Positions 30,286-36,406 of a DNA stretch of 64,000 nt are shown here, piece after piece. The DNA comes from Elusimicrobiota bacterium. GTDB lineage: Bacteria > Elusimicrobiota > Endomicrobiia > CG1-02-37-114 > XYA2-FULL-39-19. The DNA is taken from positions 2,253 to 66,252 of the forward strand of contig JAHIVV010000012.1 of assembly GCA_018816525.1 (NCBI GenBank). Reading direction: 5' to 3'. The stretch's first letter is position 1, and each line of letters opens with the position of its first letter. The translations under genes and the position numbers were made by a program. The notes below the pieces were generated by a model that was not told where the DNA came from, did no database searches, and saw only the letters and a program-made list of their open reading frames with translations.

Positions 30286-30795
30286 TTACCATTTATCCCA
30301 GCGCACAATTTCCTCCAGGTTTTTTCTGTCCCGGGTATCCGGATTTTCTGCGGGATAACCGAGTGTGAGAAGTTCAACAACCTGAATGTCTTTTGGAATA
30401 CCCAGTATTTTTTTTACTTCATCTTTATAAAATGAGCCAATCCAGCAGGATCCCAGGCCTTCTTCTACAGCTTTTAGCGTCATATGATCAATTGCAATAG
30501 ATAAATCTACTGTGGTAGCTGGCTGTCCGCATCGCATTAAATATCCGTCATCCAGGCCGCAGCAGGCTATTACTACCGGCGCTTCCGAAACAAATGCCTG
30601 ATTATTTGCGGCTATGGATAATTTTTCCCTTGTTTGTTTATCTTGAACTACGATAAACTGCCATTCTTGCCGGTTTCGTGCTGATGGAGCCAGGCGGGCT
30701 GCTTCAAGGACAGAATTAAGTTTTTCTTTCTCAACAGGCTTGTTTTGATATTTTCTAATACTCCTGCGGTTTTTAATCGCTTCCATGACGTTCAT
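30286..30795 (-). CDS. nitroreductase family protein
   Basis: RRSIRKY N-terminal motif and nitroreductase fold, 169 aa. Confidence 0.8.
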   Translation of the reverse strand: MNVMEAIKNRRSIRKYQNKPVEKEKLNSVLEAARLAPSARNRQEWQFIVVQDKQTREKLSIAANNQAFVSEAPVVIACCGLDDGYLMRCGQPATTVDLSIAIDHMTLKAVEEGLGSCWIGSFYKDEVKKILGIPKDIQVVELLTLGYPAENPDTRDRKNLEEIVRWDKW

Positions 30796-30812: not shown

Positions 30813-32369
30813 TTAGTTTGCGATTATCGGGATTATTACTATAAGCAGTGTCAGGATTGATACTCCTAAGGCAACAGCTCCTGCCCAGGGGGAAGTCAGC
30901 ATTTTTTTGATTTTATCCCTATTTGCATTTTCCGGTTCCAGCGTTGTCTGAGCTTTTGCAATTCCCATTCTTTCCTGTATCGAGCTTAATTCTTTTTTTA
31001 AAAGCTCTACAGCTGTCTGCAACCCGGCTAGTTTGTCTGCAGTGTCCTGGGTTAAAGCGGGCTGCGGGTTATTTGATTCCCTGGTTTGCTCGGCATTTTT
31101 TTTGTCCTGGCCCGTAACTTTTTGCATTTTAAAATCTGTTTTAAATTGGTCAAATTGAGCCTGCAGTTCGGTCAGCTTCCTGTTAAGTTCGATTACCGCA
31201 AGGTTAGTTTCCCTTACGCGGTTTTTTGAATCCGCCTGATCGTCGTATAATTTTTGCTGGTTATCGGATAAAACCTTGAAAGAATCTTCAACGTTTGCCA
31301 AATCATCGCTTAATTGTATTATTTGAATTTCAAGAGATTTTAATTTTTTGTTTCCCGCTGGTGCAGGGCTTGCGGTTTTCTTTTTAGCTGTTGTTGCGGC
31401 AACAACAGAAATATTTGAAAACAATGCCAAAGAAAAAATACATAATGCAATTGCAGCAGATTTTTTTAATAATTTCAAAGCTTTTGAAAAATCGGCTGGT
31501 AATTTTGCGCTTAATTGTATTTCTTTTTTAGTTTTTGGGTGCATAATAGTAAGTTTCCAGGCGTGAAGCATCTGCCGGGAAATGTTGAGTTTTTCTGATT
31601 CATTTTTTGATTCAAAACTATAGTAAACCTTGTCGCCTAAAATTGAGCGCCCTATTGAATTTAAATGAACTCTTATCTGATGGGTCCTTCCGGTTAAAGG
31701 GTGGACTTCCAGAAAAGTGTTATCCTTAAAAGCTTCTTTTACTTTGAAATGAGTCATTGCCGTTCTCCCGAATCCGATTGTAAACTTTTTTCTGTCCCGG
31801 AAATCTCTTGCTAAAGGCGCATCGATGCTTCCATTTTTTTCAATAAATATGCCATGAACCAGCGCTAGGTATATTTTTTCTACAGACCTGTGCATAAACT
31901 GTTTCATTATGTTATACTGAGCGGCAGGTGTTTTTGCAATTATCATCAGCCCAGAAGTATCTTTATCCAGGCGGTGAACGAGCCCCGAACGGTCTATTTT
32001 TGAATTATTCCTCTGGGCGGAGATTATATCTGAAATCGTCGGTTCCTGTATTTTAACAGCGCGCCCGGAACGCCCAAAAACAGGATGCGCGCTTATACCA
32101 AAGGGTTTGTTTATTGCAATAAACGAATCGTCTTCGTAGATTATTTCCAGCGGGCATTTTGAAAAATCGGTTTTTGTTGTTGCTGGGAAAATGATGCTGA
32201 CCTTGTCATTTTCACGCAGTTTATAAGAAGGTTCAGTTGCCCGGCTGTTGATAAGCACAGCTTTTTCTTTTATGAGCTGTTTGAAGTAATTTCTTGAAAA
32301 ATCAGGGTAATTAGCGGCAAGAAAAGAATCTATTCTTGCCCCGGGTATTGCCGTAAGTTCTTTTTCCAT
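30813..32369 (-). CDS. RluA/RluD-family pseudouridine synthase fused in frame to a C-terminal signal-like/coiled-coil/TM-anchored module
   Basis: Residues 1-300: S4 domain plus catalytic HRLDKDTSGL. Residues 298-518: MKLLKKSAAIALCIFSLALFSNISVVA-like hydrophobic segment starting at an in-frame TTG (31476-31478), a long coiled coil, and a terminal TM (AVALGVSILTLLIVIIPIIAN). Confidence 0.75.
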   Translation of the reverse strand: MEKELTAIPGARIDSFLAANYPDFSRNYFKQLIKEKAVLINSRATEPSYKLRENDKVSIIFPATTKTDFSKCPLEIIYEDDSFIAINKPFGISAHPVFGRSGRAVKIQEPTISDIISAQRNNSKIDRSGLVHRLDKDTSGLMIIAKTPAAQYNIMKQFMHRSVEKIYLALVHGIFIEKNGSIDAPLARDFRDRKKFTIGFGRTAMTHFKVKEAFKDNTFLEVHPLTGRTHQIRVHLNSIGRSILGDKVYYSFESKNESEKLNISRQMLHAWKLTIMHPKTKKEIQLSAKLPADFSKALKLLKKSAAIALCIFSLALFSNISVVAATTAKKKTASPAPAGNKKLKSLEIQIIQLSDDLANVEDSFKVLSDNQQKLYDDQADSKNRVRETNLAVIELNRKLTELQAQFDQFKTDFKMQKVTGQDKKNAEQTRESNNPQPALTQDTADKLAGLQTAVELLKKELSSIQERMGIAKAQTTLEPENANRDKIKKMLTSPWAGAVALGVSILTLLIVIIPIIAN

Positions 32370-33112
32370 AAGTAATATAAGCTGACAGATGATATAACCA
32401 AGAAAAGTATCGAAATAAATTGCGACGGATACAAACGGTTAAAAATCATCGGCCCTCTGTCGTCTCCCCTGAAGAATTCAATAAAGAATCTCCATAAGCT
32501 GTAGATTATGATAGCAGTAAAAAAAGTCTGGCTGTTGAATATTTTTTTTCTGTTTAAATAATGAGTGAACACAAAGACAATAAAACTGAACAATGATTCT
32601 AAAATTTGCGTGGGGACTAATTTTATATTTAACGGTGCAAAAGCCTTCGTGTTAGAAAACACAATACCCCAAAAGCCGGTTGTTGGCCTTCCGTAACAGC
32701 ACCCGGCGCAAAGGCATCCTATTCTGCCGATAGCCAGGCCTAAAAAAAATGCGGGGGAAAATAGATCCGCAAATTTCAAAATGTCATATTTTTTCTTTCG
32801 CAAATAAAAGAAAACGGCAATAAAAGCTGTAACCACGCCGCCGTAAAGCACAAGGCCGCCGGACCAAATGAAAAATATTTCCAGGAGGTTGCTTCTATAG
32901 AATCCCCAGTTCAGCGCGACATAGATGGCCCTGGCGCCTATTAAACCGCTTAGAAGAATATAGAGCCCCAGGTCTAATATGGTTTCTACGCTTAACGCTT
33001 GTTTTGCGGCCTGCCTGCTCAAATAGTAAATAGCTGCTGCAAATCCCAGGGCTACAAAAAATCCATAAGTTTTAATTGACAAAGGGCCTAAATTGAAAAG
33101 TTCAGGGCACAT
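32330..33112 (-). CDS. lgt: prolipoprotein diacylglyceryl transferase
   Basis: Lgt signature and multi-TM topology (GPLSIKTYGFFVALGF...). Confidence 0.85.
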   Translation of the reverse strand: MCPELFNLGPLSIKTYGFFVALGFAAAIYYLSRQAAKQALSVETILDLGLYILLSGLIGARAIYVALNWGFYRSNLLEIFFIWSGGLVLYGGVVTAFIAVFFYLRKKKYDILKFADLFSPAFFLGLAIGRIGCLCAGCCYGRPTTGFWGIVFSNTKAFAPLNIKLVPTQILESLFSFIVFVFTHYLNRKKIFNSQTFFTAIIIYSLWRFFIEFFRGDDRGPMIFNRLYPSQFISILFLVISSVSLYYLWKKNLRQYPGQE

Positions 33113-33117
33113 AATTG

Positions 33118-33576
33118 TTAAGATTTCCTTTTAATAAAAAAAGAAATGAAAAGTATTGCGCCGCCGATTGAAATGGACGAATCTGCGACATTAAAAACGG
33201 GGAAAAAATGGAAATCAATAAAATCTATTACATTTCCCAGAAAAATTCTGTCTATCAGGTTTCCAAAAGCTCCGGCAAAAACCAGTGTAATTGCAATTTC
33301 AGCCGCTCGACCGCCAAATTCAATAAGTTTATTGTAATAAATGATGAAACAGGCGAGTATGGCGATCATAATAAAAATGAATGCAACATTTGAATAAGCC
33401 TGGTTCTGAAAAAAACCCCACGCCATGCCGGTATTATGTATATAGGTCAAGGATAGAAAGGATGTGACCGGTTTTGACTGGTAGAGGAAAAAGTTTTTTC
33501 TTATAAAAAACTTGGTTAGCTGATCAAGAATGACAATAAGAAGAATAACGGGACAGCTATATTTCAAATGTTTCAT
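33118..33576 (-). CDS. lspA: lipoprotein signal peptidase II
   Basis: 152 aa, 4 TM segments, LspA motifs (NTGMAWGF, FNVADS). Confidence 0.85.
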   Translation of the reverse strand: MKHLKYSCPVILLIVILDQLTKFFIRKNFFLYQSKPVTSFLSLTYIHNTGMAWGFFQNQAYSNVAFIFIMIAILACFIIYYNKLIEFGGRAAEIAITLVFAGAFGNLIDRIFLGNVIDFIDFHFFPVFNVADSSISIGGAILFISFFIKRKS

Positions 33577-33646: not shown

Positions 33647-36406
33647 TTAAATAAGCTTTGCAATAGTATCCTTACACCGCGGGCATAAATCTTCCGCAGC
33701 GGTTTCAGTTGACCAGTTCCAGCATCTCGGGCATTTCTTGCCTTCGGCATGAGATACCGTAATTTTCAAACCCTCACTAATCGGTTTCAATTCAAGTTGT
33801 GATACAATCAGTATGGCAGGCAAATCTTTCTGATATTTTTTTAATAGTTCCAATAATTCATTATCGGTTTCAATAACAAGTTTTGCTTCTAAGGAGCCTC
33901 CGATAAGCGCCGATTTTCTTGCGCTTTCAAGTTCCATATTGGCTTTATCGCGAACTTCCATGATTTTTTTCCAATTTTTTTCAATGGTTTCATTCATCAA
34001 TTCTGTTTTTGGTTCTGGAATTGTTTCCATATAAATGCTTGCTGATGCTTCGCTGATATTCTTTGACTCCTGTCTTAAAGTCTGCCAGGCTTCTTCAGCT
34101 GTGAATGAAAGAATGGGGGAAATAAGTTTCAGCATGGTGATTAGAATTTCCTGAAGAACAGTTTGCGCTGAGCGTCTTTCTTTGGAATCAGCGGGATAAG
34201 TGTAGAGCCGGTCTTTAAGGATGTCTAAATAAAAACCTGAAAGATCAAGGACACAGAAATTATTCACGAGCGAGACAACACTATGGAATTCGTAACTGTC
34301 ATAGGCTTTTGTAACGTCTTTATTTAACTGTTGAAGGCGCAAAAGCATATATTTATCAAGCTCAAGCAGGTCCTCGTATTTTATTTTGTTGCTGTTGGCG
34401 TCATAGTCGCATAAATTGCCGATTATAAAGCGGACGGTGTTTCTTATTTTCCTGTAAGTTTCGACAAGCCGTTCGATAATTTCTTTTGAAATTCTTATAT
34501 CTTCGCTGTAATCGCTGGAACTTACCCACAGGCGCAAAATTTCTGCCCCGAAACTTTTCATTATTTCCTGTGGAGCGATCACATTTCCCTGCGATTTAGA
34601 CATTTTCTTTCCTTCAGCGTCAACAACAAAGCCATGGGTAAGTACTTCTTTAAAAGGCGCTTTACCGTGTAAAGCGACTGAAGGGATCAATGAAAGCTGG
34701 AACCAACCTCTGTGCTGATCGCTTCCTTCAAGGTACATATCAGCCGGCCAGTTTGATTTGTCAGATAAAACTACTTCGTGCGATCCGCCGGATTCGAACC
34801 AGACATCAAAAATATCGGATTCCTTTTTAAATTTGTCATTGCCGCACTTACATTTGTACCCTGAAGGAAGGAAATCTTCAATAGGCCTGGAAAACCAGCA
34901 ATCACTACTCTCTGTTTTGGTATATTTTTCAAATTTTTCTATAACTGTCGGATTTAAAGAAACATCTTCGCATTTTTCGCATTTAATCGCGGGGATTGGC
35001 AAACCCCAGTATCTTTGTCTTGACAAACACCAATCTGGGCGGTTTTCAAGCATTCCCGTGATTCTTTTAATACCGTACTCCGGAATCCATTTAACGTCTT
35101 TTACCGAGTTTAACAGTTTTTTGCGCAAACCCTGCAGGTCAACGTTCATAAACCATTGATAAGTTGCTCGGAAGATTACAGCATGTTTGCATCTCCAGCA
35201 GTGCGGGTACGAGTGAGTTATTTCTGTTTCATTCAGCAAGGCGCCGATTTCTTTTAACCTCTTGGTGATCATCGGGTTTGCTGCAAAAACCCTATGCCCG
35301 CAGAATTCAGGAACTTCACTTGTGAATGCGCCTTTATCGTCAACTGGTGAAAGAATGGGGAGATTATATTTTAGTCCGACAACATAATCTTCCTGTCCGT
35401 GGCCGGGAGCGTTGTGCACAATGCCTGAGCCGTCTTCCAGGCTGACAAAATCAGCAAGAATGCCTGTAGAAGTGCTGTCAATAAGAGGGTTTTTGCATTT
35501 TATGTATTCAAAATCTTTTCCTTTGAAAACGAGGTTGGTAACTTCATAATTTGTGAGGCCTATTTTTTCAGTAACTGATTTAAGAAGTTTTTCTGCGATC
35601 ACCATGTGTTCATCCCCTGTTTTTATAAATACGTAATTTTCTTCAGCCGCAAAAGACAATGCAACGTTTGCAGGAAGGGTCCAGGGTGTTGTGGTCCAGA
35701 TTACTATGGAACTATTTTCAGGAAGATTTTTTGCTTTTAGTGCCGGAGTATATTCAATTACTTTGAATTTTACAAAAATTGAAGGGGAAATGTGGTCTGC
35801 ATATTCCACTTCGGCGTCCGCCAGGGCTGTTTCGCAGTGAGTGCACCAATAAACCGGTTTTTTTGCGCGGTAAATATAATCTTTTTCTACCAGTTGTTTG
35901 AACATGTGGATTATGGTTGATTCATATTCTGGCGCCATAGTAAGATAAGGACGGCCCCAATCTCCGAAAACTCCAAGCTTCTTGAATTCATCTCTTTGTA
36001 TATCGACGAATTTCATGGCAAAATCTTTTGCTTTTTTACGCAATTCGATTTTATCTATCTGTCTTTTGTCTAATTTGAGGGTTTTGAATAACTGGTGTTC
36101 GATAGGAAGCCCGTGGCAGTCCCATCCCGGAACGTAGGGGGTGGAAAAACCGCGCATTGATTTGTATTTTACTACGATATCTTTCAATATTTTATTTAAA
36201 GCATGCCCGATGTGGATAACGCCGTTTGCGTAAGGTGGGCCGTCATGCAAAATGAACTGGTTTGCGCTTTTTTTGAGCATTTTTTCATAAACTTTGTTTT
36301 CGTTCCAAAGTGCCAGGATTTTTGGTTCCAGCACCGAAAGGTTTGCCTTCATTGAAAACTGGGTTTTTGGTAAATTAACTGTTTTTGAATAATTTTTCTT
36401 TTCCAT
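33647..36406 (-). CDS. ileS: isoleucyl-tRNA synthetase
   Basis: HIGH (PYANGVIHIGH) and KMSKS motifs, 919 aa, C-terminal zinc ribbon. Confidence 0.95.
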   Translation of the reverse strand: MEKKNYSKTVNLPKTQFSMKANLSVLEPKILALWNENKVYEKMLKKSANQFILHDGPPYANGVIHIGHALNKILKDIVVKYKSMRGFSTPYVPGWDCHGLPIEHQLFKTLKLDKRQIDKIELRKKAKDFAMKFVDIQRDEFKKLGVFGDWGRPYLTMAPEYESTIIHMFKQLVEKDYIYRAKKPVYWCTHCETALADAEVEYADHISPSIFVKFKVIEYTPALKAKNLPENSSIVIWTTTPWTLPANVALSFAAEENYVFIKTGDEHMVIAEKLLKSVTEKIGLTNYEVTNLVFKGKDFEYIKCKNPLIDSTSTGILADFVSLEDGSGIVHNAPGHGQEDYVVGLKYNLPILSPVDDKGAFTSEVPEFCGHRVFAANPMITKRLKEIGALLNETEITHSYPHCWRCKHAVIFRATYQWFMNVDLQGLRKKLLNSVKDVKWIPEYGIKRITGMLENRPDWCLSRQRYWGLPIPAIKCEKCEDVSLNPTVIEKFEKYTKTESSDCWFSRPIEDFLPSGYKCKCGNDKFKKESDIFDVWFESGGSHEVVLSDKSNWPADMYLEGSDQHRGWFQLSLIPSVALHGKAPFKEVLTHGFVVDAEGKKMSKSQGNVIAPQEIMKSFGAEILRLWVSSSDYSEDIRISKEIIERLVETYRKIRNTVRFIIGNLCDYDANSNKIKYEDLLELDKYMLLRLQQLNKDVTKAYDSYEFHSVVSLVNNFCVLDLSGFYLDILKDRLYTYPADSKERRSAQTVLQEILITMLKLISPILSFTAEEAWQTLRQESKNISEASASIYMETIPEPKTELMNETIEKNWKKIMEVRDKANMELESARKSALIGGSLEAKLVIETDNELLELLKKYQKDLPAILIVSQLELKPISEGLKITVSHAEGKKCPRCWNWSTETAAEDLCPRCKDTIAKLI

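What the first reader, a model, noticed from the sequence alone, without database searches (positions are those of the whole stretch)
30813..31478. RluD-type pseudouridine synthase carrying an in-frame signal-peptide / coiled-coil / membrane-anchor C-terminal module
The first about 300 residues form a complete S4 plus pseudouridine-synthase core (HRLDKDTSGL). With no stop, the frame continues into 220 residues that look like a different protein: a signal-peptide-like segment (LKLLKKSAAIALCIFSLALFSNISVVA, beginning at an in-frame TTG at 31476-31478), a long coiled coil, and a C-terminal TM helix. It is either an unusual fusion (a membrane-tethered RluD), a nested or overlapping second gene started internally, or loss of the RluD stop codon.
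Basis: seen in the sequence. Interest (0 to 1): 0.5.

Follow-up and report, generated by a model that had tools for sequence, protein, structure and literature searches.

The report
RluD fused to downstream envelope protein
In this Elusimicrobiota genome the ribosomal-RNA pseudouridine synthase gene rluD has merged in frame with the gene that normally follows it, which encodes a secreted, membrane-anchored coiled-coil protein, so one 518-residue product carries a signal peptide in its middle; the fusion is real, conserved and unusual, but not a new kind of system.

Summary
ORF 30813-32369 (minus strand, 518 aa) runs without a stop from a complete S4 + RluA/RluD-type pseudouridine synthase (residues 10-301) into 217 more residues. 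These comprise a hydrophobic signal-peptide-like segment, about 150 residues of coiled coil, and a C-terminal TM helix.

It is not a sequencing error. The identical protein is in NCBI (MBU0951485.1), and four MAG proteins at 90% identity or more, plus homologs down to 38% identity, have the same architecture and the same ileS-lspA-lgt synteny.

The C-terminal module belongs to a small, unannotated Elusimicrobiota family that I call X. In other Elusimicrobiota X is a separate 160-245 aa protein (N-terminal signal peptide, coiled coil, SSPW motif, TM). Its gene lies directly downstream of a separate rluD in 5 of 6 independent contexts, with spacers from -11 to +88 nt. In one locus it is in frame, 12 nt after the rluD stop.

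The window gene is therefore an evolutionary fusion of two adjacent genes. A conserved internal start is not supported: two of five fused genes have no start codon before the hydrophobic segment.

Most likely mechanism (inferred): RluD stays in the cytoplasm, its basic tail acts as the signal peptide's n-region, and X is exported and probably cut off by signal peptidase I.

Moderate interest; a new variant of a known kind.

The parts
30813..32369 (-). Whole fused gene rluD::X (518 codons plus stop at 30813-30815).
   Evidence: ORF; 100% identical to NCBI MBU0951485.1 from an Elusimicrobiota MAG.
31467..32342 (-). Complete RluA/RluD-type pseudouridine synthase, residues 10-301. S4 domain: residues 12-57 (32199-32336). 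Catalytic domain: residues 83-237 (31659-32123). Catalytic Asp135 of the HRLD motif: 31965-31967.
   Evidence: HRLD, TSG and GRTHQIRVH are invariant in fused and unfused relatives.
31458..31478 (-). Junction, residues 298-304 (LKLLKKS). This is the natural basic C-terminal tail of RluD, and here it also serves as the positively charged n-region of the internal signal peptide.
   Evidence: unfused relatives end ...LKLLKKNVN*...LKKLKI*...LEYLRKKN*. P0004 ends ...LKYIKST*; the start codon is not conserved and there is no SD.
31398..31457 (-). Internal signal-peptide-like segment, residues 305-324. h-region AAIALCIFSLALF (13 aa), c-region SNISVVA, putative signal peptidase I site VVA|A between residues 324 and 325.
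   Evidence: hydropathy; it aligns with the N-terminal signal peptides of stand-alone X proteins; (-3,-1) sites are retained in all fused homologs.
31359..31397 (-). Ala/Pro/Lys-rich linker, residues 325-337 (ATTAKKKTASPAPAGNKK region), predicted disordered.
   Evidence: pLDDT below 50 for module residues 31-40.
31071..31358 (-). Coiled-coil helix 1, residues 338-433. It contains the family signature R-x-x-E-x-N-x-A-x-x-x-L-N-R-K (residues 384-398, nt 31176-31220).
   Evidence: helix, pLDDT above 90. R87, E90, A94, L98 and N99 are invariant in 13 sequences.
30894..31049 (-). Coiled-coil helix 2, residues 441-492, following the NNPQP break.
30816..30893 (-). S-P-W motif plus C-terminal transmembrane anchor, residues 493-518.
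   Evidence: KD 2.89; the SSPW + TM block is conserved in the family.
32330..33112 (-). lgt (prolipoprotein diacylglyceryl transferase), the upstream operon partner. It overlaps the start of the fusion gene by 40 nt.
33118..33576 (-). lspA (signal peptidase II).
33647..36406 (-). ileS, the first gene of the conserved ileS-lspA-lgt-rluD(-X) block.
   Evidence: Same order in L002, L004, L012 and L014.

Best explanation
The gene is an evolutionary in-frame fusion of two neighbouring genes of a conserved Elusimicrobiota block, ileS-lspA-lgt-rluD-X. X is an uncharacterised envelope protein: signal peptide, about 150 aa of periplasmic coiled coil, SSPW motif, C-terminal TM anchor.

Shown: the rluD stop, the spacer, and X's own start and n-region have been lost. 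As a result the basic C-terminal tail of RluD (LKLLKK) runs straight into the hydrophobic core of X's signal peptide.

Inferred: the fusion is tolerated because the two topologies are compatible. A signal peptide inserts with its N-terminus in the cytoplasm, so the catalytically intact RluD domain stays cytoplasmic, where its 23S rRNA substrate is. The coiled coil is translocated through Sec, and the last helix stops transfer.

Inferred: the internal segment keeps a short h-region (11-18 residues), a polar or helix-breaking residue (N or P) ahead of the site, and small residues at -3 and -1 in all fused lineages. Signal peptidase I therefore most likely cuts after VVA324. That would release mature X, identical in design to the product of the two-gene arrangement, and leave RluD with a short hydrophobic tail that is either membrane-associated or removed. 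On this reading the gene is a bacterial 'polyprotein' with an internal signal peptide.

My probabilities: about 0.95 for fusion of adjacent genes, and about 0.5-0.55 for the cleavage step. The confidence value given (0.55) is for the whole statement including cleavage.
For: - Fusion conserved and independently assembled. The window protein is identical to an NCBI protein and has 4 relatives at 90% identity or more, 515-518 aa, from other MAGs. P0002/L019 (63% identity), P0122 (on 6 contigs, up to 132 kb), P0121 (3 members), P0003 and P0123 all have RluD + hydrophobic segment + coiled coil + TM.
- Stand-alone homologs. An exhaustive HMMER search of 1.84 billion representatives gave 35 hits. About 30 of them are 130-245 aa, have N-terminal signal peptides and end in SSPW + TM. 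Pairwise tblastn against the window gave E = 1e-24 and 2e-23.
- Adjacency to a separate rluD. L004/L005 have an 88-nt spacer, L008 82 nt, L009/L010 1 nt, L014/L015 an 11-nt overlap, and L016 12 nt in frame ('...LKKLKI*RRNNMRLISLF...').
- Same synteny in fused and unfused loci.
- RluD intact: TIGR00005 262.7 bits, catalytic motif invariant.
- No conserved internal start.
- Signal-peptide features retained in fused forms: VVA|A, GGA|Q, VFA|Q, VNA|T, LNA|Y.
- The RluD domains of fused genes and of adjacent-unfused genes form one clade apart from other bacterial RluDs.
Against: - Cleavage is inferred only from a rule-based reading of the sequence. No trained signal-peptide predictor was available and there are no protein data.
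- P0122's best site (LNA|Y, or A-Y-C-A|G) is less canonical.
- In L002 the internal ATGs are preceded by GGAGGA. In the window a TTG is present. Some separate initiation of X therefore cannot be excluded in individual lineages.
- The NJ tree has no support values, so the number of fusion events (one or two, or fusion followed by fission) is open.
- The function of X is unknown. No Pfam, NCBIfam or PDB relative scored above noise.
Confidence: 0.55

Rival explanations
1. Stable, uncleaved membrane-tethered RluD. The internal hydrophobic segment acts as a signal anchor. The protein stays in one piece, with RluD on the cytoplasmic face, a periplasmic coiled-coil loop, and a second TM. Pseudouridylation of helix 69 would then be localised at the membrane.
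For: - A single ORF with two hydrophobic segments and a consistent in-out-in topology.
- The fusion is conserved over deep divergence, 38% identity. That could indicate an advantage of physical linkage.
- AF2 models residues 2-30 of the module as one helix.
Against: - The hydrophobic cores are only 11-18 residues and are followed by N or P and by small residues at -3 and -1, exactly as in the cleavable signal peptides of stand-alone X.
- The unfused arrangement in sister lineages shows that linkage is not required.
Confidence: 0.3
2. Two products from one reading frame. Besides read-through from the rluD start, ribosomes initiate internally at TTG 31476-31478 (Leu298) and make a normal pre-X with its own signal peptide. 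This is the nested-gene idea.
For: - An in-frame TTG sits exactly at the start of the n-region in the window.
- The homologous codon is ATG in L002, preceded by GGAGGA 5 nt upstream.
Against: - The same position is TTA in L001 and TTA in L012, and neither gene has any start codon before the h-region.
- The window TTG has only 'AAG' 2 nt upstream, whereas many genes in the window have 4-7 nt SD matches.
- The L002 GGAGGA encodes the conserved E-D of the RluD LPxDF motif.
- There is no promoter-like site upstream.
- With no stop codon, the fused product is made in any case.
Confidence: 0.1
3. Artefact or recent pseudogenisation. An assembly or sequencing error, or a recent mutation, removed the rluD stop, and the extension is not functional.
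For: The source is a MAG. Most RluD homologs (hundreds) are 296-320 aa.
Against: - The same fusion occurs in at least 6 protein clusters from independent samples and assemblers (NCBI, JGI, ENA, Logan), some on contigs above 100 kb.
- The module is conserved at the protein level: invariant motif, SPW + TM.
- The alternative frames are closed.
Confidence: 0.02

Closest known systems
RluD / RluA-family 23S rRNA pseudouridine synthases (TIGR00005; Pfam PF01479 S4 + PF00849). Examples are E. coli RluD and B. subtilis RluD (YlyB), which is encoded next to lspA (the gene neighbourhood is from my own knowledge).
   Same: - N-terminal S4 domain and catalytic domain with HRLD...TSG and GRTHQIRVH motifs.
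- End-to-end match to TIGR00005, above its cut-off.
- Position downstream of lspA.
   Different: - Ordinary members stop at about 300-325 aa, right after LPxDFxxxLxxL(K/R). This one continues for 217 residues into an exported or membrane module.
- It scores 189.5 bits on the E. coli-type RluD equivalog model, below the 351-bit cut-off. The exact target uridines are therefore not established.
Stand-alone 'X' proteins of Elusimicrobiota, annotated as hypothetical proteins. Examples: MFH2070334.1 (P0126), PIV53553.1/OIO75521.1 (P0163/P0164), P0124, P0128, P0129.
   Same: - Homologous over the whole module: E down to 2.6e-28 against the profile and 1e-24 pairwise.
- Same order of elements: signal peptide, coiled coil with the RxxExNxAxxxLN(R)K motif, SSPW, TM.
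- Same genomic position after rluD.
   Different: They have their own start codon and n-region and are separate polypeptides. In the window the signal peptide is internal and borrows RluD's basic tail.
Bacterial polyproteins split at an internal signal peptide, such as Bradyrhizobium japonicum FbcH (cytochrome b-c1 precursor; Thony-Meyer et al. 1991). This is recalled from my own knowledge. My literature searches found no paper describing this precedent.
   Same: One ORF in which an upstream domain is followed by a signal-peptide-like segment with an AXA-type site and then an exported domain. Two mature proteins are expected from one translation product.
   Different: - FbcH joins two subunits of one membrane complex. 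Here a soluble cytoplasmic RNA-modifying enzyme is joined to an unrelated envelope protein.
- Cleavage is untested here.
C-tail-anchored coiled-coil inner-membrane proteins: E. coli YgiM-type TIGR04211 'SH3_and_anchor', and ElaB/YqjD ribosome-associated tail-anchored proteins (the latter from my own knowledge).
   Same: Coiled coil followed by a single C-terminal TM. There is weak similarity to the coiled-coil-plus-anchor part of TIGR04211: E = 3.6e-4 for the window module and 1.1e-5 for P0127.
   Different: - All scores (16-25 bits) are far below the 65-bit cut-off.
- There is no SH3 domain.
- X has a signal peptide, so its coiled coil is periplasmic, whereas the ElaB/YqjD coiled coils are cytoplasmic.

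Membership tests
RluA-family (RluD-type) pseudouridine synthase | PseudoU_synth_2 catalytic domain above the Pfam gathering score | tested here: met
   PF00849, 104.3 bits against a 26.8-bit cut-off, residues 83-237.
RluA-family (RluD-type) pseudouridine synthase | N-terminal S4 RNA-binding domain | tested here: met
   PF01479, 26.8 bits against a 22.8-bit cut-off, residues 12-57.
RluA-family (RluD-type) pseudouridine synthase | Catalytic Asp in the HRLD motif and the conserved GRTHQIRVH block | tested here: met
   H132, R133, L134, D135 and G227-H235 are invariant in the alignment with unfused relatives.
RluA-family (RluD-type) pseudouridine synthase | Full-length match to NCBIfam TIGR00005 above its cut-off | tested here: met
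   262.7 bits against 192.7, profile positions 5-297 of 298.
RluD equivalog (23S rRNA psi1911/1915/1917 synthase, NF008385) | Score above the equivalog cut-off (351 bits) | tested here: not met
   189.5 bits. It is the best-scoring equivalog (RluC scores 143.7), but the score is below the cut-off, so site specificity is inferred rather than established.
RluD equivalog (23S rRNA psi1911/1915/1917 synthase, NF008385) | Pseudouridylation of helix 69 of 23S rRNA | not testable with these tools
   This needs rRNA modification mapping.
Elusimicrobiota X family (signal peptide, coiled coil, SSPW, TM; no database model) | Significant sequence homology across the module, including the invariant R..E.N.A...LN motif | tested here: met
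Elusimicrobiota X family (signal peptide, coiled coil, SSPW, TM; no database model) | C-terminal S-P-W followed by a single TM at the extreme C-terminus | tested here: met
   residues 493-517.
Elusimicrobiota X family (signal peptide, coiled coil, SSPW, TM; no database model) | Signal peptide at the N-terminus of the polypeptide, with its own start codon | tested here: not met
   Here the homologous segment is internal (residues 298-324), after RluD. The start codon is not conserved among fused genes.
Elusimicrobiota X family (signal peptide, coiled coil, SSPW, TM; no database model) | Gene located immediately 3' of rluD in the lspA-lgt-rluD block | tested here: met
   In the window the spacing is zero, because the genes are fused.
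Polyprotein processed at an internal signal peptide (FbcH-like logic) | Internal segment with n-, h- and c-regions and a (-3,-1) small-residue site | tested here: inconclusive
   a rule-based scan finds VVA|A, with equivalents in all fused homologs. No trained predictor was available.
Polyprotein processed at an internal signal peptide (FbcH-like logic) | Demonstrated cleavage into two mature proteins | not testable with these tools
   This needs proteomics or a western blot.
TIGR04211 SH3_and_anchor (YgiM-like) | Score above the 65-bit cut-off, and an SH3 domain | tested here: not met
   20.2 bits. The match covers only the coiled-coil and anchor part, and there is no SH3 hit.

The most novel reading that the evidence does not exclude
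The fusion is not a neutral accident but a selected coupling device. By encoding RluD upstream of an internal signal sequence, the cell would force every RluD molecule to be made on a membrane-targeted ribosome and to remain tethered, permanently or transiently. That would place late 50S maturation (helix-69 pseudouridylation) at the membrane or translocon and fix a 1:1 stoichiometry with an envelope coiled-coil protein. The tight rluD-X coupling seen across Elusimicrobiota would then reflect a real functional link between ribosome biogenesis and envelope assembly.
Probability: 0.1. Interest if true: 0.7.

Novelty: new variant of a known kind. Interest (0 to 1): 0.4.

Why it matters
- **Annotation.** Database entries call this protein simply 'RluA family pseudouridine synthase'. 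About 40% of it is a different, exported protein. That protein belongs to an unmodelled Elusimicrobiota family, which could now be defined (signature RxxExNxAxxxLN(R)K ... SSPW-TM).
- **Natural test case.** The locus shows a cytoplasmic enzyme placed upstream of an internal signal peptide in a bacterium. Closely related lineages carry the two-gene version as a built-in control. This is useful for studying Sec/SRP targeting of internal signals, signal peptidase I processing of polyproteins, and how topological compatibility governs which gene fusions survive.
- **Gene pairing.** The conserved and often overlapping rluD-X arrangement is an unexplained pairing in a poorly studied phylum.
- **Limits.** It does not by itself reveal a new molecular mechanism.

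Tried and rejected
- **Word-indexed protein search with the C-terminal alignment.** It returned nothing, not even the query. The low-complexity coiled-coil words swamped the candidate list. I treated this as uninformative and replaced it with the exhaustive HMMER search.
- **The search for related loci with the 13- and 7-sequence alignments.** With the 3-sequence alignment, the GTDB scan found only the already known RIFOXYB2 contig. The metagenome scan found 3 loci: L019 and L020 are fused (L019 gives the complete C-terminus of P0002), and L018 is cut at its 5' end and probably fused.
- **Pfam and NCBIfam on the module and on 10 stand-alone homologs.** Only generic coiled-coil noise below the cut-offs (SMC, Rad50, ATG16 and similar).
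- **PDB searches.** The profile search hit only generic coiled coils: P22 gp26, reovirus sigma-1, keratin, tetherin, Lpp. Foldseek of the AF2 model against PDB found nothing.
- **Lipoprotein idea, prompted by the lspA/lgt neighbours.** There is no consistent lipobox Cys in the family alignment (my reading). Rejected.
- **ElaB/YqjD-like cytoplasmic tail-anchored ribosome binder.** Rejected because the family's N-terminal signal peptides place the coiled coil outside the cytoplasm.
- **Internal promoter or terminator.** There is no promoter-like site upstream of 31478, and the counts do not exceed the shuffled controls.
- **Literature.** I found no paper describing a membrane-anchored or signal-peptide-fused RluD. 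The FbcH precedent could not be retrieved and is cited from memory.
Full report
**1. Observation**

The window contains one uninterrupted minus-strand ORF, 30813..32369, of 518 aa.

- Residues 12-57 match Pfam S4 and residues 83-237 match PseudoU_synth_2.
- NCBIfam TIGR00005 (RluA subfamily) aligns residues 10-301 to positions 5-297 of its 298-position profile, at 262.7 bits against a cut-off of 192.7. The synthase is therefore complete at about residue 301.
- The reading frame then continues for 217 residues.
- The whole protein has only two hydrophobic peaks, at residues about 304-326 and about 493-517.
- AlphaFold2 models the region between them as two long helices: module residues 41-136, mostly pLDDT above 90, and 144-195, separated by NNPQP.
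- The in-frame TTG at 31476-31478 encodes Leu298.

The description and the coordinates are correct.

**2. Not an error**

- The two other frames across the junction are closed by many stops.
- The protein is 100% identical to NCBI MBU0951485.1 from an Elusimicrobiota MAG. Four further proteins at 90% identity or more, 515-518 aa long, come from other MAGs and assemblies.
- More distant homologs have the same architecture:
  - P0002 (63% identity, Elusimicrobia RIFOXYB2_FULL_48_7). It is truncated by a contig end, and its complete C-terminus was recovered on L019.
  - P0122 (Elusimicrobia RIFOXYA2_FULL_39_19), seen on 6 contigs of up to 132 kb.
  - P0121, a cluster of three members.
  - P0003 (38% identity) and P0123.
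- Synteny is also shared. The window reads RNase T, metallophosphoesterase, ileS, lspA, lgt, fusion gene, (nitroreductase), POR-gamma, GNAT. L012 has the same order without the nitroreductase. L002 and L011 share the upstream part.

**3. What the C-terminal module is**

A word-indexed search failed for technical reasons. An exhaustive HMMER search of 1.84 billion representative proteins, using a profile of the three fused C-termini, found only 35 proteins at E <= 1e-3.

- Three are further fused proteins.
- About 30 are short stand-alone proteins of 130-245 aa.

The stand-alone proteins begin with a typical N-terminal signal peptide, for example MKKAMVFAALAHLAVFSCFAGA|QE and MRSFILTIVVLSAVNAFA|AP. 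They contain a coiled coil with the signature R-x-x-E-x-N-x-A-x-x-x-L-N-(R)-K. They end with SSPW followed by one TM helix and usually a terminal K or R.

Pairwise tblastn of stand-alone P0124 and P0126 against the window gave E = 1e-24 and 2e-23, at 33% identity over about 185 aa. This is specific homology, not generic coiled-coil similarity.

Every member that carries a source name comes from Elusimicrobia/Elusimicrobiota and is called 'hypothetical protein'. No Pfam, NCBIfam or PDB entry reaches significance. I call this family X.

**4. Origin of the fusion**

In six independent stand-alone contexts long enough to judge, X lies directly downstream of a separate rluD in five:

| Locus | rluD-to-X spacing |
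|---|---|
| L004/L005 | 88 nt |
| L008 | 82 nt |
| L009/L010 | 1 nt |
| L014/L015 | genes overlap by 11 nt |
| L016 | 12 nt, in the same frame |
| L007 | exception: the upstream gene is not rluD |

L003 was too short to judge. Where the contig extends far enough upstream, the pair sits inside the same lspA-lgt-rluD block (L004, L009/L010, L014/L015, L016).

L016 reads '...LPDDFRTALKKLKI*RRNNMRLISLFLVV...'. One substitution in its stop codon would reproduce the window's architecture.

Unfused RluDs end in a basic tail...LKLLKKNVN*...LKKLKI*...LEYLRKKN*...LKYIKST*. In all fused proteins the hydrophobic core starts 0-1 residues after that tail. Examples are the window's LKLLKKS-AAIALCIF, P0003's LRAIRK-LAVVVL and P0121's LKK-LSVLFF. 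X's own Met and n-region have therefore been lost, and the RluD tail supplies the positive n-region.

An NJ tree of the RluD domains puts the fused and the adjacent-unfused genes in one clade, separate from other bacterial RluDs. The fused genes fall into two sub-groups. The tree has no support values, so I do not decide between one or two fusion events.

**5. Internal start?**

| Gene | Start codon before the h-region | Shine-Dalgarno |
|---|---|---|
| Window | TTG at Leu298 | none: 'AAG' 2 nt upstream |
| L002 | two ATGs | GGAGGA upstream, but it encodes the conserved E-D of LPxDF |
| L011 | TTG directly at the start of the hydrophobic segment, leaving no basic n-region; also the ATG of the M in MPDDF | not examined |
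| L001 | none (the homologous codon is TTA) | not applicable |
| L012 | none (the homologous codon is TTA) | not applicable |

Source. Many genes in the window have 4-7 nt SD matches, so the absence of one at the TTG is meaningful. No promoter-like site precedes 31478. The conserved product is therefore the fused polypeptide. Occasional internal initiation in single lineages cannot be excluded.

**6. Mechanism**

Shown:
- RluD is intact. The catalytic Asp135 and the other motifs are invariant.
- The module retains every element of X.

Inferred from established Sec/signal-peptide rules (positive-inside rule; von Heijne's -3,-1 rule; h-region lengths of 7-15 residues for cleavable signals against about 20 for TM anchors):
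- The internal segment inserts with its N-terminus in the cytoplasm, so RluD stays cytoplasmic.
- The coiled coil is translocated, and the C-terminal helix anchors it with a very short cytoplasmic end. The two topologies are compatible, which explains why this fusion survives.
- The fused segments keep short hydrophobic cores of 11-18 residues, then N or P, then small residues at -3 and -1: VVA|A, GGA|Q, VFA|Q, VNA|T, LNA|Y. Stand-alone X signal peptides look the same.

I therefore favour cleavage by signal peptidase I (about 0.5-0.55). That would give mature X plus RluD carrying a C-terminal signal-peptide remnant of about 25 residues. The main rival (about 0.3) is an uncleaved signal anchor, giving a permanently membrane-tethered RluD.

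The function of X is unknown. My best guess is a periplasmic structural or spacer coiled coil anchored in the inner membrane. Its two invariant Asn residues, seven positions apart (residues 389 and 396), suggest polar core layers that fix the oligomeric state. This is inference only.

**7. Comparison with what is known**

- The N-terminal part is a bona fide RluA-family, RluD-like synthase. All family features I tested are met, but it scores below the cut-off of the E. coli RluD equivalog model (189.5 against 351 bits). Site specificity is therefore inferred.
- The C-terminal part is a member of the undescribed X family in everything except having its own N-terminus.
- The overall logic resembles bacterial polyproteins cleaved at an internal signal peptide, such as B. 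japonicum FbcH. That example is from my own knowledge; my literature searches did not retrieve it.
- I found no paper describing a signal-peptide- or TM-fused RluD.

**8. Verdict**

This is a lineage-specific gene fusion of a known enzyme with an uncharacterised envelope protein: a new variant of a known kind. It is of moderate interest, mainly as an annotation correction and as a natural model for internal signal peptides.

Noticed in passing
L001 (P0003) and P0123; alignment A1 columns about 112-175: Two fused homologs carry an insertion of about 40-60 aa, rich in Arg and Glu and of low complexity, inside the RluD catalytic domain. It lies between the KPxG..HP motif and the TIxDI segment. 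It is absent from the window protein and from all other relatives examined.
   Followed up: no
window about 31182-31205 (residues 389 and 396 of the ORF): Two invariant Asn residues of the X module are exactly seven residues apart, so they share a heptad position. They lie within the most confidently predicted helix. This suggests buried polar layers that set the oligomeric state of the coiled coil. The only PDB profile hits are generic, mostly trimeric, coiled coils.
   Followed up: partly
L014/L015 1621-2246: In the Elusimicrobia CG-type genomes, a small ORF plus a PIN-domain gene (a toxin-antitoxin-like pair) is inserted between lspA and lgt in the otherwise conserved ileS-lspA-lgt-rluD-X block.
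   Followed up: no
window 30286-30795 (-): A nitroreductase-family gene sits 17 nt downstream of the fusion gene, between it and the POR-gamma/GNAT genes. The syntenic locus L012 lacks it, so it looks like a lineage-specific insertion.
   Followed up: partly
P0101 (548 aa; not in the window): This is another kind of RluD fusion. A complete RluD-like synthase is followed in frame by a second S4 + pseudouridine synthase (RsuA/RluB-like; Pfam PF22421 is listed). It shows that 3' fusions to rluD occur in other lineages too.
   Followed up: no
window 32330-32369: The lgt ORF as listed overlaps the start of the fusion gene by 40 nt. Similar overlaps of about 20-55 nt are called in L002, L009, L011, L012, L014 and L016. 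This suggests translational coupling along the lspA-lgt-rluD block.
   Followed up: no
L018 3-641: A metagenome contig encodes an X module 69% identical to the window's. Its ORF runs off the 5' contig end starting at LRKTVVVVICIF, with no Met. It is probably another fused gene, but the RluD part is not on the contig.
   Followed up: partly
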